In this document: positions 8,421 through 59,589 of the stretch, piece by piece
Layout: the number at the start of each line of letters is the position of its first letter
How positions within the stretch are numbered: the stretch's first letter is position 1
From: a virus
Lineage: Duplodnaviria > Caudoviricetes
Direction: 5' to 3' (one strand)
Length of the DNA stretch: 64,000 nt
IMG/VR virus record: IMGVR_UViG_3300027759_003166
Position numbers and translations under genes: made by a program
The notes under the pieces: generated by a model
What the model was told of the DNA's origin: nothing
Databases searched by the model: none
The model's input: only the letters and a program-made list of their open reading frames with translations

Positions 8421-9011
8421 TTACATGGTAGGGCCATTGCCATTTTTAAATCCAATGGTTCCACCTTCTTCAATAATACGTTTCTTTACATCTTCAAATA
8501 ATATAGGCGCAAAGTCAGTTTGCTCCACGCATACACAATGATATCGGACATCAATGACAGGTGTGGCAAATTCTCCAGAAGCTGGTCCAGGTTTCATTAC
8601 TCTGTTGGCATGAGTATGCCCGTGTACATTTACACCAAACCTACCTAACGATTCTGTGTGTAATGGGATATGACTAAAAATCATTCCTTCAACTACGTGA
8701 TAGGCACGTAATTCACGGAAGTACTTACGATACTCATCATCTGGAAAGATATCGTGATTGCCGCGGATTAACACCTTGTCGCCGTTTAATCTAGACATAG
8801 TGGGTAAGTGCTTTCGGTTCATAACCACATCGCCTAAGTGATATACTTTATCTTTGGGACCAACACGGTCATTCCAGGCCTTAATCATGGCTTCGTCCAT
8901 TTCTTCAGGACTATCCCAGGGCCTTAATTTGGTCACACCGTCATTCCGTGTGAAATGACATACGCCCTTGTGTCCAAAGTGAGTGTCACTAACTAAAAAT
9001 ACTGCTGGCAT
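8421..9011 (-). CDS. Calcineurin-like metallophosphoesterase
   Basis: SDTHFGH, YHLGD, RGNHD, SHIP and HGHTH motifs. Confidence 0.9.
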   Translation of the reverse strand: MPAVFLVSDTHFGHKGVCHFTRNDGVTKLRPWDSPEEMDEAMIKAWNDRVGPKDKVYHLGDVVMNRKHLPTMSRLNGDKVLIRGNHDIFPDDEYRKYFRELRAYHVVEGMIFSHIPLHTESLGRFGVNVHGHTHANRVMKPGPASGEFATPVIDVRYHCVCVEQTDFAPILFEDVKKRIIEEGGTIGFKNGNGPTM

Positions 9012-9275: not shown

Positions 9276-9512
9276 TCAAGTCTTTGAGCTCATTTTAAGC
9301 AGGTAAAGAGTTACTTCTGGACCATCAACAATTACTACATCGTTGGGATATTTGTTAACACCGTTATACCATATACTGTGCTCGCCTACTTCCCAAACTC
9401 TAACCATTATCTTGTTGAGTTTCTTTACAGTACCAAATTCCAAACTATTACGGTATGGATAACAGACAGCATCGCCAACTTTGATAATGCGTCCTAATTT
9501 ATCTTTATGCAT
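9276..9512 (-). CDS. Hypothetical protein
   Basis: DKLGRIIKVGDAV start typical of small phage SH3-like proteins. Confidence 0.6.
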   Translation of the reverse strand: MHKDKLGRIIKVGDAVCYPYRNSLEFGTVKKLNKIMVRVWEVGEHSIWYNGVNKYPNDVVIVDGPEVTLYLLKMSSKT

Positions 9513-9966
9513 ACCAAATTTCCTTGAAGCCTTCTTCCAAAGTTGGTTCTTCCCAATTACTAATCATATCGTCGATAACATTCTTTGGAATATGTTTTCC
9601 AGGCCGACTACTTAGCCGTACATCTAATTCATCACGTGGGGGTGTTCGAAATACTACAGCAATAGTATAGTACTCAGGCAACATTCGAATCTTCTTTAAA
9701 CGTGAATATATTGTAGTGCTGGTTTGATCCCAAACAATATCTCGCCCTGCTTCACAAGCATGAGCAACATCACCTACCATATACTCCACGCATTTGGGCA
9801 TAACTTCATTAAAGACTTCGCTATAAGTTTTACCCATATTCTTAGCATATTCTTCAACGTAGCGATCTGTGCTGATGTATGCAGCTTCTTGCAACCATTC
9901 TTGATCGCAATGCCACGAACTTTTACCAGAACATGGCACTCCAACTAACATATACAATTTTGGCAT
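9505..9966 (-). CDS. P-loop kinase (AAA_33 / polynucleotide-kinase-like)
   Basis: LVGVPCSGKSS Walker A, ISTD, VWDQT, EEPTLEEGF. Confidence 0.85.
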   Translation of the reverse strand: MPKLYMLVGVPCSGKSSWHCDQEWLQEAAYISTDRYVEEYAKNMGKTYSEVFNEVMPKCVEYMVGDVAHACEAGRDIVWDQTSTTIYSRLKKIRMLPEYYTIAVVFRTPPRDELDVRLSSRPGKHIPKNVIDDMISNWEEPTLEEGFKEIWYA

Positions 9967-10765: not shown

Positions 10766-12187
10766 TTACAGATCGTAGCGCGGAACTAGTACAGTCTTAC
10801 GCATGATGCCTTCTGGAGTGAATTGTTCAACATCCGCACCTAGCAAGCTAGCCATGATTGCTGGACTAAATCCACTTACAAGAGCGGCACCGCTCTTATC
10901 TGCCGCAACTGGTACGTTACCAGAACTGTTTAGGTTCCAGAAAACAACCTGTGGACAAGTGTATCCGGCTGCTTCAAACTTGCGTTCGATCATTTCCATC
11001 GCACTGTCATCGTGGCGAACACAGGCGTTAAATTGCATGTCGCTCAAGATCAAAACCATTGCTGGCATATCACTTTGAGGAGCATTGCCCTTAACTGCTA
11101 CACTTAGAATCTTTTCAAATGCTGCATGTAGATTTGTGCTCATACCCCAGTCGCTCTTGACCATTTGATTCATCTTTTGGACAATGTCGCCCCGAAGAGT
11201 CATCAATTGTGGCTTGTCACTGAATGTCAAGAAAGTGTCCTTGAACACACCCTTGTTCTTATCAGCCAAGTACAAGCCAAGGCTAACAGAAATATCCATA
11301 CAGGTAACACTACCCTTACCGCCCGCCGCACAACTCATAGAGCCGCTTACGTCTACTAGTGGTAGGATGCTAGCATCTCCAACGTAGTTTGGCAAGGCGT
11401 TCCATTGTGCAGTGATGTGATCCAATTCTGTCTTAGACAAAGTCGGACGCATGTATGCGTAAGCATTAACCAGTCCCTTCAACACATCGTGTGGGAAAAT
11501 AGCGTTAGCATTAACCTTCACACCTGCTTCGCCCTTGACCAGTGCAGCCACGTACTCAGCAAACTTAGGAGTGTGACGTCCAAAAGCCTTCTTGTAGTTA
11601 CGTGATGCCACGCTAGGTACGTGGTTGAAGTTGATGTTGTCCCAGTCATTGGCACACATTTGTGTTTCAACAACCTTGGTCAAAGCCACAAGACTCTTAC
11701 GGTAGAACTTTGGGCTCATACCGAAGAACTCACGGACTTCTGCTGCGATCTTGCCCTTACGTGGAGTCCACTTGGCAGCAAGGCCGTTACGAGCACGTAG
11801 AGCATCGCCCAACATGGTGTAAGCAGCAGCCTTCAATACAGGAGTAGTGAAGACAAAGATGTCATCCCAACGACCTACTTCAGGTACCTTCTTCAGCAAA
11901 GCCAAAGCGGCATCTGGGTCAGTCTTTTCTAGATGTACCAGAATTGAACGGAACAATTCCCGTTCGCCCGCTCCACCACGGACATCACGTGCCCATTGTG
12001 CGATACGTAGAGCCAAGTCGAAGTTTTCAACATAGGCCGCAGTAAATGCGGGTACAATGTTCTTACCACGGCTTGCGCCGATGTTGTAGAACAGATCAAC
12101 ACACTTGTTAGCGGTTGATTCACAAGCCTTCATACCATTAGCGGTACGGGCTTCTTGGTTAGCGATTGCGGTTACGAATGCGTTCAT
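10766..12187 (-). CDS. TROVE/Ro60-like protein with a C-terminal vWA domain (DUF2828 type)
   Basis: ARDVRGGAGER, VGRWDD, AAKWTPR; MIDAS DVSGSM; LILSDMQF; VVFWNL. Confidence 0.85.
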   Translation of the reverse strand: MNAFVTAIANQEARTANGMKACESTANKCVDLFYNIGASRGKNIVPAFTAAYVENFDLALRIAQWARDVRGGAGERELFRSILVHLEKTDPDAALALLKKVPEVGRWDDIFVFTTPVLKAAAYTMLGDALRARNGLAAKWTPRKGKIAAEVREFFGMSPKFYRKSLVALTKVVETQMCANDWDNINFNHVPSVASRNYKKAFGRHTPKFAEYVAALVKGEAGVKVNANAIFPHDVLKGLVNAYAYMRPTLSKTELDHITAQWNALPNYVGDASILPLVDVSGSMSCAAGGKGSVTCMDISVSLGLYLADKNKGVFKDTFLTFSDKPQLMTLRGDIVQKMNQMVKSDWGMSTNLHAAFEKILSVAVKGNAPQSDMPAMVLILSDMQFNACVRHDDSAMEMIERKFEAAGYTCPQVVFWNLNSSGNVPVAADKSGAALVSGFSPAIMASLLGADVEQFTPEGIMRKTVLVPRYDL

Positions 12188-12201: not shown

Positions 12202-12257
12202 CAGAATGTATTTTATTTTCGATATAATTGAAATATAAGATTGCTGTTAACATTCTA
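12202..12257 (-). ncRNA. Family-A structured RNA A1 (in the vWA 5' UTR)
   Basis: UAGAAUGU/ACAUUCUG stem, UAACAGCAA, AUAU-UUCAAUU-AUAU T-loop hairpin. Confidence 0.65.
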
Positions 12258-12265
12258 TTATTCAA

Positions 12266-12370
12266 CAGGATAGTTGTGCCACTTTTTACTGATGTAGCCA
12301 ACAGTTTGATAGGCTGTGAAGTTATCTCTGCCCATCAGTTCATGTAATATGAGTTGCTGAACCTATCCTA
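12266..12370 (-). ncRNA. Family-A structured RNA A2
   Basis: UAGGAUAG/CUAUCCUG stem, UUCAGCAA, internal ACUGAUG/CAUCAGU helix. Confidence 0.65.
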
Positions 12371-12403
12371 AAACTTACTAACAAGTTTCCTTGCTATGTA
12401 TAT

Positions 12404-12432
12404 ATTGTATAACAAAACTCAAGTCTTGTCAA
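12404..12432 (-). promoter_or_regulatory. Sigma70 promoter for the vWA gene
   Basis: TTGACA-17 bp-TACAAT. Confidence 0.8.
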
Positions 12433-12447
12433 TACAATTTGGAAAAG

Positions 12448-12526
12448 CAGGATACCATTATTTTTGGAATTGAACCAAATATCGCATGAAGCGAATTAAC
12501 CAAAGGTTATTGCTGTTAGTATCCTA
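12448..12526 (-). ncRNA. Family-A structured RNA A3 (cloverleaf-like interior)
   Basis: UAGGAUAC/GUAUCCUG stem, UAACAGCAA, three hairpins including UUUGG-UUCAAUU-CCAAA. Confidence 0.7.
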
Positions 12527-15554: not shown

Positions 15555-16217
15555 TTATTTTCTAATACAAATTAGATCACTTTCACCAAAGGGATGCGGA
15601 TCTCTTGTTTTAAGAAATTCTGTTTCAAACCCTTGTTGATGGATCCATGATTCAAGATCACTTTTTGGAGCGTGACCCTTATAGTAAGGTTTTAATGCAG
15701 CTTCTGTATGCATTAGTTTAACATCATCGATGAATTTCCCCATACCTTGCAATGCTTTTAATTCATTACCTTGTACATCCATCCAAACAGCATCTACCTT
15801 ATCGACACCAATTTCTGTTAAAACATCATCTATACGTCTTGCTCTAATGCCGGATAATTTTTGAAAGGTACATGGTCTGTGTCCATTCTGCCATCCTGCA
15901 TCTAAGAAATCCTCTGCTGGTTCTAAAATAGAGGATGCACCAACATTTTCATTAACTATCCAAAAATCTACAATATCTTCTTTATCATTACAGGCATATT
16001 CATATACCTCAATGTTAGGATAATTTTTTCCTGCTGCTACACAAATAGGAAACTGATTAGGATTTGGTTCAAATGCAATTATTCTAGTATTAGGAAATGC
16101 CTCAGACATCTGTACACTTTCTTCTAGGTCTCTGCTACCTACATCTAAAATAACTTGTGGGCCTTGATTTCCATAAATTTCTTTTAGTTGTTCTATAAAA
16201 TCACCTGCTACTGCCAT
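15555..16217 (-). CDS. FkbM family methyltransferase
   Basis: ILDVGS, AFEPNP, VWMDVQGNELKALQG. Confidence 0.85.
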   Translation of the reverse strand: MAVAGDFIEQLKEIYGNQGPQVILDVGSRDLEESVQMSEAFPNTRIIAFEPNPNQFPICVAAGKNYPNIEVYEYACNDKEDIVDFWIVNENVGASSILEPAEDFLDAGWQNGHRPCTFQKLSGIRARRIDDVLTEIGVDKVDAVWMDVQGNELKALQGMGKFIDDVKLMHTEAALKPYYKGHAPKSDLESWIHQQGFETEFLKTRDPHPFGESDLICIRK

Positions 16218-17278: not shown

Positions 17279-17461
17279 TTTTTTCTTTTGAGGAAGTCCA
17301 CCTTTGGACCACTCTGTATTTTCGTATATTGCTAACTCATCTTTTGATATTCGTTTAGCAATAATACCATTGTTTATTAATATTGTTCCTATATTAGCCT
17401 CTGCTACTAGGGATACATATATTTGTTTTATGCAGGTTCTACAAGAAAATTCTTGTACCAT
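17264..17461 (-). CDS. Hypothetical protein
   Basis: 65-aa ORF with a CxxC motif; overlaps neighbours slightly. Confidence 0.4.
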   Translation of the reverse strand: MVQEFSCRTCIKQIYVSLVAEANIGTILINNGIIAKRISKDELAIYENTEWSKGGLPQKKKGSLV

Positions 17462-18087
17462 TCTGCTTCTGTTAACATTTCAACAATTTTATAATTATTA
17501 TTGTTTATCCAACTGTCAAACTCATTGAGATTTGAATTACTCACTTCTACAAACAATAAAGGTCTACATCTTGCTATAGTATCAGCAAGTCCAATGAGTA
17601 CATCCATTTCCATGCCTTCTACATCAATTTTAATCAAATCAATTTTTTTATTATAAAATAAGGCATCGCCTGGTACTTGAGGAATACCCGATATCATCCC
17701 TTGATCTTTTAAACTTGTTGCACCTAAATTATCGTTAAACATTTCTCGAATGCCTGAAAACCCAAATCTAGAACCCATTGCTAGACCTAGAAAATCTATG
17801 TTAACGGATTTGCAATAATTCAATGCTATATTTTGTAATAGTAATTTATAGCTCTGTGCTATTGGCTCAATGACAATTATTTCTTTTGGATTCAGATACC
17901 AATCAAAAAATATAGTGTGATTACCCACATTTGCCCCAACATCTACAATTGTAAGATCTGGAGGAATATATTTTATTAGTTTATCCAATTCATCTCGTTC
18001 ATAAAATTCACATTTAAGATGATGACGTTGAATAGTATCATTACCATTATCTACCATAAATTTTAATTTTCTCATATATGCTTTCAT
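17428..18087 (-). CDS. FkbM family methyltransferase
   Basis: VDVGANVGNHT, IEP, IKIDVEGMEMDVLIG. Confidence 0.9.
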   Translation of the reverse strand: MKAYMRKLKFMVDNGNDTIQRHHLKCEFYERDELDKLIKYIPPDLTIVDVGANVGNHTIFFDWYLNPKEIIVIEPIAQSYKLLLQNIALNYCKSVNIDFLGLAMGSRFGFSGIREMFNDNLGATSLKDQGMISGIPQVPGDALFYNKKIDLIKIDVEGMEMDVLIGLADTIARCRPLLFVEVSNSNLNEFDSWINNNNYKIVEMLTEAEWYKNFLVEPA

Positions 18088-20162: not shown

Positions 20163-20218
20163 CAGGATGCTTATTTTTCAATTAAAAGTTGAATTTAAAA
20201 TTTGCTGTTCGCATCCTA
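20163..20218 (-). ncRNA. Family-A structured RNA A4
   Basis: UAGGAUGC/GCAUCCUG, GAACAGCAA, UUAAA-UUCAACU-UUUAA. Confidence 0.7.
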
Positions 20219-20222
20219 AAAG

Positions 20223-20297
20223 TGGCTCCCTCGGGAAGGATCGAACTTCCGACCAATTGGTTAACAGCCAACTGCTCTACCTCTGAGCTACAAGGGA
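20223..20297 (-). tRNA. trnN: tRNA-Asn(GUU)
   Basis: Loop CUGUUAA, G73. Confidence 0.95.
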
Positions 20298-20305
20298 ATA
20301 ATAAA

Positions 20306-20516
20306 TTTGTAAGTAGTTCCGCCCATATTATCGGAACCATTCACCTTATTATACAAGGCCGGCAAGGTCTCGGTACGTTACTTGGGAGTCCTCCAAATGA
20401 TACGCCAATTGTATACTAGTCTTCCGACCAGCCGGGCATCGAACCCGCATCCTTTTACTGTTTCAGTTGTTCGAACGAACCTAGACAGCGTGACTTCTCT
20501 TGCTAACACTTACAAA
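20306..20516 (-). ncRNA. YrlA-like Y RNA candidate (211 nt) with a permuted tRNA-mimic domain
   Basis: UUUGUAAGU/ACUUACAAA terminal stem; T arm, then loop-closed acceptor stem, then D arm at 20398-20448. Confidence 0.65.
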
Positions 20517-20519
20517 ACT

Positions 20520-20594
20520 TGGAGTCGCATACGGGTTTCGATCCCGTCTAGTCACCTTGAAAGGGTGATGACCTCGCCAGAAGTCTAATGCGAC
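20520..20594 (-). tRNA. trnE: tRNA-Glu(UUC)
   Basis: UCACC-CUUUCAA-GGUGA; T loop AUCGAAA. Confidence 0.85.
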
Positions 20595-20603
20595 ATAATA
20601 AAA

Positions 20604-20663
20604 CAGGATAGCATTTTTTTTCATTAACGTTGAAAGTTTTTTGAGTTTGCTGTTGCTATCCTA
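20604..20663 (-). ncRNA. Family-A structured RNA A5
   Basis: UAGGAUAGC/GCUAUCCUG, AACAGCAA, AAC-UUUCAAC-GUU hairpin. Confidence 0.7.
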
Positions 20664-21500: not shown

Positions 21501-21529
21501 ATTATACATTTATTTAGCCTCGCTGTCAA
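21501..21529 (-). promoter_or_regulatory. Proximal sigma70 promoter of the tRNA operon
   Basis: TTGACA-17 bp-TATAAT, followed by ACATACACAGCAA. Confidence 0.9.
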
Positions 21530-21585: not shown

Positions 21586-21614
21586 ATTGTATAGTGATTG
21601 TGTTACCCTGTCAA
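21586..21614 (-). promoter_or_regulatory. Distal sigma70 promoter of the tRNA operon
   Basis: TTGACA-17 bp-TACAAT, followed by ACATACACAGCAA. Confidence 0.85.
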
Positions 21615-29338: not shown

Positions 29339-29639
29339 CATGTGGAGAGGATGGTTTATTGGCAACTTTGAACCAACTGTATTAAAAACTAAAGACTTTG
29401 AAGTAGGTATATTAACACACAAGAAAGATGAAGTATGGCCAGAACATTATCATGCCATTGCTACAGAATATAATGTATTAATAAGCGGGCACATGACAGT
29501 ATGTGGAGAAGAACTACATTCTGGAGATATTTTTATTATAGAACCCAACGAAATAGCAAGACCTGTGTTCCATGAAGATTGTATAATAGTATGTGTAAAA
29601 ACACCAAGTGTACCAAAGGATAAGTATGAAGTTTTTTAG
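29316..29639 (+). CDS. Cupin-fold protein
   Basis: GWFIGNFEP, HYHAIATEYN. Confidence 0.75.
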   Translation: MKIQKLDNMWRGWFIGNFEPTVLKTKDFEVGILTHKKDEVWPEHYHAIATEYNVLISGHMTVCGEELHSGDIFIIEPNEIARPVFHEDCIIVCVKTPSVPKDKYEVF

Positions 29640-30819
29640 AAACAGAGAAGAAATAGATATAAACAAATACTTCATAGCAACATATGTTATGAAATCGTCA
29701 ACTTCACTTAAAGATGCTGCGTGGAATCTTGCTATAGGTCAAAGTGTAGGAAATCCTAGTGTTCGTAATGAATGGGAAACTGATGACTTATTTGAAAATC
29801 ACAGTTGTATCATTTTAGGTGATGAAAGCTATATGTCCACACAGATCTCGGGTATTGTAGAAATTGCATTTCCTGTAGCAAACATTGATTGGGATACAGA
29901 CGGAATTAGTCAACTTCTTTGCCACCTGATGGGAGGACAAGTTGATATTGATATTATTAAAAAATGTCGTTTGATAAAACTTGAATTGCCAAACAATGTT
30001 ACTCAGCATTTTTTAGGTCCTAAATTTGGAATTACAGGTTTTAGACAATTCACAGGACAATACAATAAACCATTATTTGGTGGTATCATTAAACCAAAGA
30101 TTGGAGTTTCTCCAGAAGTATTGCTAGAAATGGTTAAGCAAATGGTCGATGGTGGAGTTGATTTTATTAAAGAAGATGAAATCATGAGCAATCCCGTATG
30201 TGCTCCATTGGAACATAGGGTAGACATGATTGCTAACTATCTAGCCAAACAAAGTCGTAAAGTTGTATTCTGTCACACCATTAATGCAGATCCACATATT
30301 ATTATAGACCGTGTTAAGCGTGTACATGAGTTAGGTGGTAATGGAGTTCACGTTAATGTGTTTAGTGGAATTGGTGTGTATAATAGTATTCGCAAATTAG
30401 ATCTACCTTTATATCTACATTATCAAAGTAGCGGAGCGAAATTACTAACTGATGTAAATCACAGGTTTAGTATTAGTTGGCCAGTAATGTGCCAGTTAGC
30501 AACACTAATGGGTGTTGATACTATACAAACTGGCATGGTTGGAGGATATAGTAATGATGATCCAGTGGAGATTAAAGAATGTTTAGAAATATTAAGAGCA
30601 GGTAATACTGTGCCTGCACTTAGTTGTGGAATGCATCCCGGATTAGTTAATAAGGTCACCGAACTTGCAGGGTTAGATTATTTGGCCAATGCAGGTGGAG
30701 CAGTTCATGGTCACCCTGGCGGTACAGTTGCAGGTGCGCGAGCCATGAGACAAGCAATAGATAAAACGCATAATACAGAATATGATCAAGCAATTAACAA
30801 ATGGGGATTAATAATATGA
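29626..30819 (+). CDS. RuBisCO-like protein (form IV; start refined to 29626)
   Basis: GGIIKPKIG, GVDFIKEDE, PALSCG, AGGAVHGHPGG; residues equivalent to R295, H327 and K334 are absent. Confidence 0.9.
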   Translation: MKFFRNREEIDINKYFIATYVMKSSTSLKDAAWNLAIGQSVGNPSVRNEWETDDLFENHSCIILGDESYMSTQISGIVEIAFPVANIDWDTDGISQLLCHLMGGQVDIDIIKKCRLIKLELPNNVTQHFLGPKFGITGFRQFTGQYNKPLFGGIIKPKIGVSPEVLLEMVKQMVDGGVDFIKEDEIMSNPVCAPLEHRVDMIANYLAKQSRKVVFCHTINADPHIIIDRVKRVHELGGNGVHVNVFSGIGVYNSIRKLDLPLYLHYQSSGAKLLTDVNHRFSISWPVMCQLATLMGVDTIQTGMVGGYSNDDPVEIKECLEILRAGNTVPALSCGMHPGLVNKVTELAGLDYLANAGGAVHGHPGGTVAGARAMRQAIDKTHNTEYDQAINKWGLII

Positions 30820-58989: not shown

Positions 58990-59013
58990 ATAAAGAAACC
59001 CGCCGAAGCGGGT
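58990..59013 (-). terminator. Terminator after the tmRNA gene
   Basis: ACCCGC-UUCG-GCGGGU followed by UUCUUU. Confidence 0.85.
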
Positions 59014-59014
59014 C

Positions 59015-59270
59015 CTTGGTTGTTTTGGTAATAAGGTATTTCCTACCTCACCTTAGCCTCAAGCGGCTATGGAATATAAACTATCGTTTGCCTTTAGTTT
59101 GATTTGCTTGATTTACGGTCATCGCCTACCGAGTTGCCGTCGCTGACTATTTGCCCAATCGATTACCAGAGCACCCCCACCTAAATATAAATTATACACT
59201 TAGGTGGAGGTGGCCGGATTCGAACCGGCGTCTTGAACACATCATCTTTGAAGGGATTACAACTATTCTT
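59015..59270 (-). ncRNA. ssrA: Circularly permuted (two-piece) tmRNA; tag peptide (A)ANDSLYSIAA
   Basis: T arm and CACCUCC-ACC first (to 59203), then an intervening hairpin, then GGGGGUG (59178); G3-U70; tag frame 59091-59059. The 5' boundary is approximate. Confidence 0.9.
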
Positions 59271-59274
59271 TTAT

Positions 59275-59589
59275 TTAACGCTGAAAGCAATTACGCTCAC
59301 GATAAATTTGTCCATCTGGAGTCTGGATCTCTTTCCAATCAGTACAAACAGTTGTGGGTTGTTGAACAATCACAGGACGTTGAACAACTACCGGTTGTTG
59401 TTGCACTACGGTTTGAGGTTGATTAGCATTGGCAATAACGGCTCCTGCAATTCCACCGAGTATCAACGGACCTACCCAATCATTGTTGCGTTCAACAATG
59501 ACAGTACGTTCTGGATAACGATGATGCCATTGGGCGTTTGCTGCCGTGGCTGCTACCAACATAGTAATTACCAATACAAGTTTTTTCAT
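59275..59589 (-). CDS. Secreted glycine-zipper-like protein
   Basis: Signal peptide; WVGPLILGGIAGAVIA. Confidence 0.75.
   Translation of the reverse strand: MKKLVLVITMLVAATAANAQWHHRYPERTVIVERNNDWVGPLILGGIAGAVIANANQPQTVVQQQPVVVQRPVIVQQPTTVCTDWKEIQTPDGQIYRERNCFQR

What the first reader, a model, noticed from the sequence alone, without database searches (positions are those of the whole stretch)
20306..20516. YrlA-like Y RNA: circularly permuted tRNA mimic inside a 211-nt RNA
Seen in sequence (minus strand): GCGGG-UUCGAUG-CCCG (T arm) is followed at once by CUGGUC-GGAA-GACUAG (an acceptor-like stem closed by a tetraloop), then U-A, then UAC-AAUUGGC-GUA (D arm with GG). A flanking AAAGGA/UCAUUU helix sits in the anticodon-stem position and a UUUGUAAGU/ACUUACAAA stem joins the ends. 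The segment GGCUGGUCGGAAG also differs by one base from the Y-RNA 5' sequence GGCUGGUCCGAAG, which may be chance. Established: the T, loop-closed acceptor, D order is the hallmark of bacterial YrlA Y RNAs, the partners of Ro60/Rsr. Inference: this is a long, divergent Y RNA for the DUF2828-type protein.
Basis: partly seen in the sequence, partly recalled or inferred. Interest (0 to 1): 0.8.

Follow-up and report, generated by a model that had tools for sequence, protein, structure and literature searches.

The report
Sealed tRNA-mimic RNA in phage tRNA array

Summary
Window 20298-20519 (minus strand) encodes a ~222-nt RNA. Its T arm, loop-closed 7-bp acceptor-like hairpin, D arm and terminal stem are all supported by compensatory changes in 91 distinct relatives from more than 120 viral contigs. 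Only the proposed AAAGGA/UCAUUU helix fails; a helix in another register takes its place. The RNA starts right after the CCA of the upstream tRNA and is single copy. Nothing in Rfam matches it, including the YrlA model.

The T, sealed acceptor, D order is indeed that of YrlA. The DUF2828 protein 8 kb downstream does fold like Ro60. But six near-complete phage genomes that carry this RNA have no DUF2828 or TROVE gene. One near-complete genome has the gene without the RNA. The small CAGCAA-handle RNAs, which this scan has noted beside DUF2828 genes in many other genomes, do track that gene. This 222-nt family was not reported before in the scan.

Best reading: a new family of phage RNAs released by tRNA processing. 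A conserved pseudoknotted scaffold displays a sealed tRNA elbow and acts as an adaptor or decoy. The partner is unknown.

The parts
20298..20519 (-). Whole RNA cassette (~222 nt), from the base after the CCA of tRNA-Glu to the base before tRNA-Asn. Mature ends were not measured.
   Evidence: Full-length homologs in 118 loci, 91 distinct. CCA directly precedes AGUUUUG in 69 of 81 distinct contexts.
20508..20516 (-). P1 terminal stem, 5' strand (RNA nt 4-12)
   Evidence: Pairs with 20306-20314. Covaries, and a 2-nt insertion is matched on both strands.
20306..20314 (-). P1 terminal stem, 3' strand (nt 206-214)
20495..20507 (-). P2 5' strand (GUYA, nt 13-16), overlapping the near-invariant YAGCAAGAGAA block (nt 15-25)
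   Evidence: The Y of YAGCAA covaries with the R of AAGURRC: CG 52, UA 30, UG 7, CA 1. The block is invariant in 27 sequences.
20377..20380 (-). P2 3' strand (URRC, nt 140-143)
20492..20494 (-). P3 5' strand (GUC, nt 26-28). It pairs with GAC at 20388-20390 in this copy, placed by homology because MAFFT misplaces it here.
   Evidence: GUC/GAC, GAC/GUC and AAC/GUU seen in relatives
20457..20489 (-). 5' hairpin in two segments, with an invariant UUCGAA tip (20470-20475)
   Evidence: 9 of 11 pairs vary, 7 of them on both sides. UUCGAA is invariant.
20448..20452 (-). 5' strand of the helix in the anticodon-stem position (nt 68-72). It pairs with 20395-20399.
Evidence: Pair 69-124 is GC 73, AU 11. 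The variable part is weakly supported.
20433..20447 (-). T arm: 4-bp stem and 7-nt loop UUCGAUG
20415..20432 (-). Acceptor-like hairpin: 7 bp closed by the GNRA loop GGAA, with no CCA and no free end
   Evidence: All 7 pairs change on both sides. Absent or shortened in 11 of the 91 relatives.
20400..20414 (-). D arm: 4-bp stem, loop AAUUGGC with the conserved GG
   Evidence: All 4 pairs change on both sides. GG is present in 55 and 61 of 64 sequences.
20342..20373 (-). P5 hairpin. Its loop starts with a covarying 6-nt palindrome NNCGNN (20358-20363, GCCGGC here).
   Evidence: Stem. Palindrome pairs 157-162 (GC 38, CG 30, UA 21) and 158-161 (CG 66, UA 25).
20316..20337 (-). P6 hairpin. A loop base (nt 193) covaries with nt 149 in the joiner before P5, so a tertiary pair is possible.
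10766..12187 (-). Context, not shown to be a partner: DUF2828/DUF7788 protein with a Ro60 fold, at the downstream end of the tRNA array
   Evidence: Co-occurrence with the RNA fails.

Best explanation
Window 20298-20519 (minus strand) encodes a single-copy, ~220-nt non-coding RNA. It belongs to a large undescribed family that sits inside the tRNA gene arrays of big freshwater phages (genomes of 124-364 kb). It has no promoter or terminator of its own. It is transcribed with the tRNAs from the array promoters about 1 kb upstream. The tRNA-processing enzymes release it: its first base follows the encoded CCA of the upstream tRNA, and RNase P cutting the next tRNA would make its 3' end. It folds into a conserved, probably pseudoknotted scaffold: P1, P2 overlapping a YAGCAAGAGAA block, P3, a 5' hairpin with an invariant UUCGAA tip, and two 3' hairpins. 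The scaffold holds out a four-way junction built like a tRNA opened at the anticodon loop and sealed at the acceptor end: T arm, 7-bp GNRA-capped acceptor-like hairpin, D arm with GG. The T-loop/D-loop elbow is the conserved core of that module. The RNA cannot be charged and cannot decode. Inferred mechanism: it acts in trans as an adaptor or decoy. The sealed elbow engages a factor that recognises tRNA shape. The scaffold binds a second partner, or a second copy of the RNA through the covarying palindromic loop. This is the building plan of YrlA-type Y RNAs. The family does not need a phage Ro60-like gene, so in this phage the DUF2828 protein is at most an optional partner. Shown: sequence, covarying structure, family, flanks, distribution. 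Inferred: processing enzymes, trans action, any partner. I put about 0.95 on it being a real structured RNA with a tRNA-like module. The 0.45 below is for the mechanism.
For: Structure: 49 pairs of the whole RNA are 98.9% paired against 86.9% in shuffles, 24 have changes on both sides, and no shuffle in 500 reaches the observed values. For the module, 97.0% against 72.0%, and 13 of 15 pairs compensatory. Elbow determinants (UUCRA, the G:C closing the T loop, GG in the D loop) are nearly invariant. Single copy in five near-complete genomes. Only three MAG contigs among 185,579 species genomes. Flanks: the upstream tRNA ends within 1 nt in about 88 loci and the downstream tRNA starts 4-7 nt after in about 75, with many different neighbouring tRNAs. 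CCA precedes the RNA in 69 of 81 contexts. Two strong promoters lie at 21501-21529 and 21586-21614, none at the RNA, and there is no terminator. Modularity: the scaffold is kept while the module ranges from full (61 of 91) through T+D only (9) to reduced or absent. A near-identical 3' half carries a different module in L141 and L120. Independence from Ro60. The topology is the same as YrlA (PMC4201824).
Against: No experiment shows a discrete transcript. The metatranscriptome contigs only show that parts of the RNA or of relatives are present in RNA libraries. No partner is identified. 11 of 91 members lack a canonical T loop and 9 lack the acceptor hairpin, so mimicry of a whole tRNA cannot be essential to the family; the T loop may be architecture only. 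The module has almost no linker bases (no U8/N9, no variable loop) and a 4-bp T stem, so an L shape is plausible but unproven. The module alignment was fitted to the model, which favours pairing counts. Genome completeness figures are CheckV estimates; only one genome has terminal repeats.
Confidence: 0.45

Rival explanations
1. One reading: a long, divergent YrlA-type Y RNA whose dedicated partner is the phage's Ro60-like DUF2828 protein. The scaffold or YAGCAA block binds the ring, and the tRNA-like module recruits an effector such as PNPase or an RNA-repair enzyme.
For: The protein has a full-length Ro60 fold (13 best PDB matches, E 1e-8 to 4e-6; model pLDDT 92.9). In every locus that holds both, the gene lies on the same strand, 0.9-9.5 kb downstream. 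The permuted tRNA-like module is as in YrlA. The block (U)YAGCAA sits just after the closing stem, at the same spacing as in the small CAGCAA-handle RNAs that cluster at the gene. A kinase (AAA_33) and a metallophosphoesterase lie next to the gene, an RNA end-healing pair. A CGAA core is invariant in the 5' hairpin; this motif was used to spot Y-like RNAs of Thermus phage phiLo (PMC12135203).
Against: Six near-complete genomes with the RNA have no DUF2828 (protein and profile searches, with positive controls at E 1e-208) and no TROVE gene. One 96%-complete genome has the gene and the small handle RNAs but not this RNA. The YAGCAAGAGAA block is equally conserved in genomes without the gene. The YrlA covariance model does not match. 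The Y of YAGCAA is base-paired in P2, unlike in the small elements.
Confidence: 0.2
2. A complex-fold RNA, such as a ribozyme, a ligand or protein aptamer, or a self-assembling RNA. The T loop and the GG loop are only a tertiary building block, as T loops are in RNase P RNA and rRNA. The likeness to tRNA is then a by-product of descent from a tRNA gene in the array.
For: The most conserved bases lie in the joiners of the scaffold, not in the module. The family tolerates loss of the acceptor hairpin and of the canonical T loop. There is a long-range covarying pair between the joiner and the P6 loop (149-193). A 6-nt palindrome is kept self-complementary by covariation, and it cannot pair within one strand as a normal hairpin.
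Against: No match to any Rfam ribozyme or riboswitch at E<=10. The full cloverleaf-like junction with a 7-bp GNRA-capped helix is kept in 61 of 91 members, with heavy compensatory change; that is more than a T-loop contact needs. No cleavage site or ligand is suggested by the data.
Confidence: 0.2
3. A cis-acting element of the polycistronic tRNA precursor, for example a folding insulator or processing platform that helps RNase P or RNase E mature the neighbouring tRNAs, with no function once released.
For: It always abuts tRNAs at fixed distances. The invariant AGUUUUG start resembles an RNase E site (my own knowledge of the RN/WUU consensus, not tested here).
Against: There is one copy per array of up to 39 tRNAs. 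Its position in the array and its neighbours vary. A 220-nt covarying pseudoknotted fold is far more than a spacer needs.
Confidence: 0.08
4. A decaying remnant of a permuted tmRNA or of a rearranged tRNA gene, with no function.
For: The gene order T arm, acceptor hairpin, D-type loop is also that of the two-piece tmRNA gene carried by this phage and its relatives.
Against: Single-copy conservation across phages of 124-364 kb, with 24 compensatory pairs. No CCA after the acceptor strand, no tag reading frame, and no match to the tmRNA models.
Confidence: 0.02

Closest known systems
YrlA, the tRNA-like bacterial and phage Y RNA (Rfam RF02553; Chen et al. 2014, PMC4201824)
   Same: A tRNA-like domain in permuted order (T arm, loop-closed acceptor stem, D arm) with tRNA-type T and D loops, carried on a stem formed by the two RNA ends. 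Modular plan of a conserved part plus a tRNA mimic. Also found in phages.
   Different: No match to the YrlA model at E<=10. Twice as long, with a large extra scaffold (5' hairpin, P5, P6, long-range helices). No V arm, and almost no junction linkers. No GNCGAAN0-1G motif in a 5'/3' stem (only UUCGAA at a hairpin tip). Lies inside a tRNA array instead of next to a Ro60 gene. Occurs in genomes with no Ro60-like gene.
Small CAGCAA-handle RNAs beside DUF2828 (Ro60-like) genes of phages
   Same: They sit in the same tRNA array and begin with (G)UUUU after a tRNA's CCA. A closing stem of about 9 bp is followed at the same spacing by (A/U)YAGCAA. Their payloads mimic tRNA parts.
   Different: The small elements follow the DUF2828 gene (3-8 per gene-bearing genome, clustered at the gene; 0-2 scattered chance-like matches without it). 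This RNA does not. Here the Y and A of the motif are paired in P2. It is much larger, with its own conserved domains.
tRNA-like domain of two-piece (permuted) tmRNA (Rfam RF04321), also encoded at 58991-59314 of this window
   Same: Gene order T arm, then acceptor helix closed at the gene level, then D-type loop, closed by long-range helices.
   Different: In tmRNA the acceptor loop is cut out to give a CCA end that is charged with alanine, and a tag reading frame follows. Here a GNRA tetraloop seals the helix. There is no CCA and no reading frame, and there is a true D stem.
Yrl1 and Yrl2 of Thermus phage phiLo with its Ro60 (PMC12135203)
   Same: Phage-encoded structured RNAs with a CGAA core, considered partners of a phage Ro60-type ring.
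   Different: Those lie directly upstream of a canonical TROVE gene, are short stem-bulge-stem RNAs, and binding was shown by experiment. None of this holds here.
Stable RNAs of the phage T4 tRNA cluster (species 1 and 2; from my own knowledge, not checked here)
   Same: Non-tRNA stable RNAs encoded among phage tRNA genes and matured with them. Function unknown.
   Different: No sequence or structure comparison was made here.

Membership tests
YrlA (Rfam RF02553) | Scores at or above the family's covariance-model threshold (69 bits) | tested here: not met
   The model is in the library. There is no YrlA match in 20200-20620 even at E<=10 with permissive filters, and none at gathering score in the window.
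YrlA (Rfam RF02553) | tRNA-like domain in the order T arm, loop-closed acceptor stem, D arm | tested here: met
   Three helices, 15 pairs, 97% paired, 13 pairs with compensatory change
YrlA (Rfam RF02553) | T and D loops carry the conserved tRNA bases that allow the tertiary elbow | tested here: met
   UUCRA, the closing G:C and GG are nearly invariant in 64 distinct sequences. The Levitt pair and U8 contacts could not be placed because the junction has no linkers.
YrlA (Rfam RF02553) | GNCGAAN0-1G motif near the 5' end (proposed Ro60 contact) | tested here: inconclusive
   An invariant UUCGAA(G/C) is present at nt 45-51. Its first base is U, not G, and it forms the tip of a hairpin, not a strand of the end stem.
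YrlA (Rfam RF02553) | Encoded within about 4 kb of, and on the same strand as, a Ro60 (TROVE) gene | tested here: not met
   Same strand, but 8.1 kb from a DUF2828 gene here, and 0.9-9.5 kb in relatives. Six near-complete genomes with the RNA have no DUF2828 or TROVE gene.
YrlA (Rfam RF02553) | Bound by Ro60/Rsr; modified by tRNA enzymes | not testable with these tools
   Needs pull-down, gel-shift and modification mapping.
Metazoan-type Y RNA (bulged end stem with GGUCCGA) | Conserved Ro-binding helix at the paired 5' and 3' ends | tested here: not met
   No Y RNA match in Rfam at E<=10. The GGCUGGUCGGAAG likeness lies in the variable acceptor-like hairpin and is not conserved.
tRNA (RF00005) | Cloverleaf with a free acceptor end and an anticodon loop | tested here: not met
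   No call by ARAGORN or by the tRNA model inside 20298-20519. The acceptor helix is closed by GGAA and there is no anticodon loop.
Permuted tmRNA (RF04321) | Match to the model; CCA after the acceptor strand; tag reading frame | tested here: not met
   No match at E<=10. GGAA follows the acceptor strand directly.
CAGCAA-handle RNAs linked to DUF2828 | Closing stem followed by (A/U)CAGCAA | tested here: inconclusive
   UYAGCAA follows P1 at matching spacing: C in 53 and U in 37 of 90 sequences, UUAGCAA in this window. But the Y and A are paired in P2.
CAGCAA-handle RNAs linked to DUF2828 | Occurs with a DUF2828 gene | tested here: not met
Ro60/TROVE (for the protein at 10766-12187) | Ring of helical repeats followed by a vWA domain with a MIDAS motif | tested here: met
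   The AlphaFold model (pLDDT 92.9) matches 13 Ro60/TROVE chains over about 500 columns. The best profile matches in the PDB are Ro60, at the DxSxS motif (E about 0.05). Pfam names it DUF2828 + DUF7788, not TROVE.

The most novel reading that the evidence does not exclude
A new class of ornate phage RNA that works without any Ro60-type protein. It is cut out of the tRNA precursor. It pairs with a second copy through a covarying palindromic loop (or locks its two halves by a loop-loop contact of the two CG-centred tips). It then presents sealed tRNA elbows as a decoy or scaffold for a host factor that reads tRNA shape, for example a processing enzyme or a tRNA-directed defence protein.
Probability: 0.3. 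Interest if true: 0.8.

Novelty: new variant of a known kind. Interest (0 to 1): 0.6.

Why it matters
Large phages carry long tRNA arrays, now seen as tools against host defences that cut tRNAs. This work shows that the arrays also hide a widespread, single-copy, heavily covarying 220-nt RNA that no database or paper I could search describes. Its module repeats the design of YrlA, a tRNA opened at the anticodon and sealed at the acceptor end, yet it occurs in complete phage genomes with no Ro60-type protein. Either this design has a use beyond Ro60 particles, or the host supplies the partner. It gives RNA biologists a well-defined target with 91 natural variants and natural deletions of each module arm. 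It also corrects a tempting gene-neighbourhood inference: in these phages the small CAGCAA-handle RNAs track the Ro60-like gene, and this RNA does not.

Tried and rejected
Rfam at gathering score and at E<=10 gave only the two flanking tRNAs and a chance sroE match.

BLAST of the RNA against 50,697 phage records gave no match. The nearest held virus record also gave nothing useful.

nhmmer with the family profile found nothing but tRNA T arms in Synechococcus phage BUCT-ZZ01 and Felix O1-like phage E9. Model R1 gave no match in either locus.

Reads: contigs of four RNA libraries cover parts of the stretch or of relatives. Contigs cannot show ends, strand or level, so I draw no conclusion on expression, and none from uncovered parts.

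The Pfam PF11443 search of genomes rang nowhere, not even in controls, so I do not count it. The conclusion rests on the protein and profile searches, which had positive controls.

A 16-mer pattern match in G009 proved spurious. One extra R1 match (L065:4201-4278) is an ordinary tRNA 3' half.

Considered and dropped:
- An RNase P-like core. GAGAAAGUC resembles the P4 strand from memory, but the helix order does not fit and Rfam gives no match.
- An 11-nt tetraloop receptor formed by CCCAAG and UAUGG. It is not conserved outside this copy.
- A link to the phage tmRNA. It is present in all nine genomes tested, including the one without the RNA.

The single-sequence fold is not significant on its own (z = -1.7). 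The support comes from covariation.

Full report
Context. The window comes from a large phage. On the minus strand it carries 28 tRNA genes between 12531 and 20971 and a permuted tmRNA at 58991-59314. It also encodes DnaK, ClpX and a RuBisCO-like protein. The finding lies between tRNA-Glu (20520-20594) and tRNA-Asn (20223-20297). The 222 bases 20298-20519 are not called a tRNA by ARAGORN or Rfam. They match no Rfam family even at E<=10; the only listed match is a chance one to sroE.

The observation. The fold of the single sequence is not special on its own (z = -1.7), so the test had to come from relatives. On a MAFFT alignment of 27 copies, the RNAalifold structure has 49 pairs in 10 helices. 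They are 98.9% paired, against 86.9% in shuffles and 31-46% with slid partners. 24 pairs change on both sides.

For the middle part I built a covariance model of T arm, closed acceptor-like hairpin and D arm and aligned 75 matches to it. 97.0% of cells pair, against 72.0% in shuffles. 13 of 15 pairs show changes on both sides, among them all 7 of the acceptor-like helix and all 4 of the D stem. That alignment is fitted to the model, which favours it; the slid controls (33-56%) and the many pair types argue that the signal is real. The T loop reads UUCRA in 61-64 of 64 distinct sequences. The G:C pair closing it is invariant, and the D loop keeps GG.

The terminal stem covaries, and in many relatives it is 2 bp longer on both strands. 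One described helix fails. AAAGGA/UCAUUU pairs no better than shuffles (40.6%), and one of its pairs is mismatched in 62 of 64 sequences. A helix in a different register takes its place (nt 68-72 with 121-125; the pair 69-124 covaries GC 73, AU 11). In this copy the four helices meet without linker bases. The likeness of GGCUGGUCGGAAG to metazoan Y RNA lies in the freely varying acceptor-like hairpin and is chance.

How the RNA is made. In about 88 loci the upstream tRNA ends within one base of the RNA. In about 75 loci the next tRNA starts 4-7 bases after it. The neighbours are many different tRNAs. CCA directly precedes the invariant AGUUUUG in 69 of 81 distinct contexts. Two near-consensus promoters lie about 1 kb upstream, at the head of the array. 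There is none at the RNA and no terminator. So the RNA is a cassette within the polycistronic tRNA precursor. Inference: the enzymes that mature the tRNAs set its ends. It is single copy in five near-complete genomes. Among 185,579 species genomes it turns up on only three short MAG contigs from three different bacterial lineages, probably misbinned phage DNA. Contigs from four lake or viral RNA libraries cover parts of it or of relatives, which shows presence only.

Anatomy beyond the module. The best conserved bases lie in the scaffold. These are the start AGUUUUG, the block GUGUYAGCAAGAGAA, and the joiners around CUGGAC, AGUAUCCCAAGU, CGUACCGAG and GUGAAUGG. The Y of YAGCAA pairs with a purine 125 nt downstream (CG 52, UA 30, UG 7, CA 1).

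The module is variable. 61 of 91 copies have T arm, acceptor-like hairpin and D arm. Two have a 3-bp hairpin, nine have T and D arms only, eight keep a T arm with a reduced GG loop, and eleven have no canonical T loop. Copies with a nearly identical 3' half carry different modules. So the scaffold is the constant core and the tRNA-like part is an exchangeable display whose elbow is its most constant feature.

Two further features are unexplained. The P5 loop begins with a 6-nt palindrome NNCGNN that is kept self-complementary by covariation (GC 38, CG 30, UA 21 for the outer pair). The tip of the 5' hairpin is the invariant palindrome UUCGAA. These suggest a dimer or a loop-loop contact. A base of the P6 loop covaries with a base of the joiner before P5.

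Comparison with YrlA. Chen et al. (PMC4201824) define YrlA by four features:
- a tRNA-like domain in the order V, T, closed acceptor stem, D;
- nearly invariant T and D loops;
- a GNCGAAN0-1G motif near the 5' end;
- a position within 4 kb of a Ro60 gene, on the same strand.

Here the order and the loops are met. The motif is present only as UUCGAA at a hairpin tip. The Rfam model RF02553, which is in the library, does not match. The gene-neighbourhood criterion fails, as the following paragraphs show. So the RNA works like a YrlA in design but is not a member of that family.

The protein. The 473-aa product of 10766-12187 matches Pfam DUF2828 and DUF7788. A profile of 66 relatives finds Ro60 chains as its best, weak PDB matches, at the MIDAS motif. 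The AlphaFold model (pLDDT 92.9) matches 13 Ro60/TROVE structures over its full length, among them the Ro60 of Thermus phage phiLo (E 1e-8 to 4e-6, TM up to 0.65). Homologs occur in 710 phage records, and mycobacteriophage ones are annotated 'Ro-like RNA binding protein'. Next to it lie a P-loop kinase and a metallophosphoesterase.

The link between RNA and protein does not hold. Where one locus holds both, the gene lies downstream on the same strand, 0.9-9.5 kb away. This is what synteny among related phages would also give. I therefore searched whole records. Six near-complete genomes carry the RNA (CheckV 93-100%; one has direct terminal repeats). None has a match to the protein. None matches a profile of the family, which found the gene at E 1e-208 in two positive controls. 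None matches Pfam TROVE, whose control rang in Deinococcus. Conversely, a 96%-complete genome with the gene has no copy of the RNA by BLAST, by model R1 or by pattern.

The small RNAs with a closing stem and (A/U)CAGCAA behave differently. Earlier notes of this scan report them beside DUF2828 genes in many genomes. I saw them in this window, in a Felix O1-like phage and in a cyanophage. They do follow the gene: 3-8 copies in each of six gene-bearing genomes, clustered at the gene, against 0-2 scattered, atypical matches in the six genomes without it. This RNA shares with them the (G)UUUU start, a closing stem and UYAGCAA at the same spacing. That may reflect common descent, but the block is just as conserved where the gene is absent.

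Mechanism. Shown: a conserved, covarying, single-copy RNA cassette in tRNA arrays, with a sealed cloverleaf-like module and a constant scaffold. Inferred, about 0.45: after release by tRNA processing it acts in trans as an adaptor or decoy. The elbow engages something that reads tRNA shape. The scaffold binds another partner or a second copy.

The rivals:
- A dedicated Y RNA of the DUF2828 protein (0.2). This needs the host, or an unseen protein, to stand in where the gene is missing.
- A complex-fold RNA in which the T loop is only architecture (0.2).
- A cis-acting processing element (0.08).
- A decaying remnant (0.02), which the covariation excludes.

Novelty. I found no Rfam family and no paper that describes this RNA. 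The jumbo-phage survey by Iyer et al. only notes TROVE proteins with a tRNA-like partner in some phages (PMC7824862). A look-up by sequence shows that this scan had not reported the 222-nt family on other DNA; it had reported the DUF2828 and CAGCAA-handle pairing many times. I class it as a new variant of a known kind: tRNA-mimicking, Y-like modular RNAs.

Limits. No experiment, no RNA 3D model and no host are available. Completeness values are estimates. The module alignment is model-fitted. Several junction pairs and the tertiary contacts rest on few changes.

Noticed in passing
window 12202-12526, 20163-20218, 20604-20663 (minus strand): Five small RNAs, each with a UAGRAU...AUYCUG closing stem followed by (A/U)CAGCAA. 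In 12 related genomes this element type follows the DUF2828 gene: 3-8 copies, clustered at the gene, in gene-bearing genomes, against 0-2 scattered atypical matches in genomes without it. They are better candidates for partner RNAs of the Ro60-like protein than the 222-nt RNA.
   Followed up: partly
window 20358-20363 and 20470-20475 (minus strand): Two CG-centred palindromes at hairpin tips of the RNA. NNCGNN in the P5 loop is kept self-complementary by covariation. UUCGAA at the 5' hairpin tip is invariant. This hints at dimer formation or a loop-loop contact.
   Followed up: partly
window 8421-9011 and 9505-9966 (minus strand): A calcineurin-like metallophosphoesterase and an AAA_33 P-loop kinase lie just downstream of the Ro60-like gene. 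Together they form a possible RNA end-healing pair.
   Followed up: no
window 15555-16217 and 17428-18087 (minus strand): Two FkbM-type methyltransferase genes sit inside the tRNA array. One also has a weak TRM5/TYW2 match.
   Followed up: no
window 58991-59314 (minus strand): A phage-encoded permuted (two-piece) tmRNA. A tmRNA of this type is present in all nine related phage genomes tested, and in Synechococcus phage BUCT-ZZ01.
   Followed up: partly
window 21501-21529 and 21586-21614 (minus strand): Two near-perfect sigma-70 type promoters (12 of 12 and 11 of 12 matches) at the head of the tRNA array.
   Followed up: no
L202:7709-7959 (Escherichia phage vB_EcoM_E9, Felix O1-like): The unannotated 250-nt gap between tRNA-Glu and tRNA-Asn, just after the DUF2828 gene, holds two CAGCAA-handle elements and a tRNA-like sequence with a normal T arm and CCA end that the tRNA model does not call. 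The same two tRNAs flank the 222-nt RNA in the window.
   Followed up: no
L211, L212, L213 (MAG contigs labelled Crocinitomicaceae, Planctomycetia, Kapaibacterium): The only matches to the RNA in the species-genome collection are short contigs of metagenome bins from three different bacterial lineages. They are most likely phage contigs binned by mistake.
   Followed up: partly
L141 and L120 compared with window 20298-20400: The 3' half of the RNA is almost identical in the window, L141 and L120, while the module and parts of the 5' half differ. This suggests exchange of the module by recombination.
   Followed up: no
window 29608-30819 (plus strand): A 403-aa protein with a RuBisCO large-chain catalytic domain match (E 1e-36) in a phage genome.
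   Followed up: no
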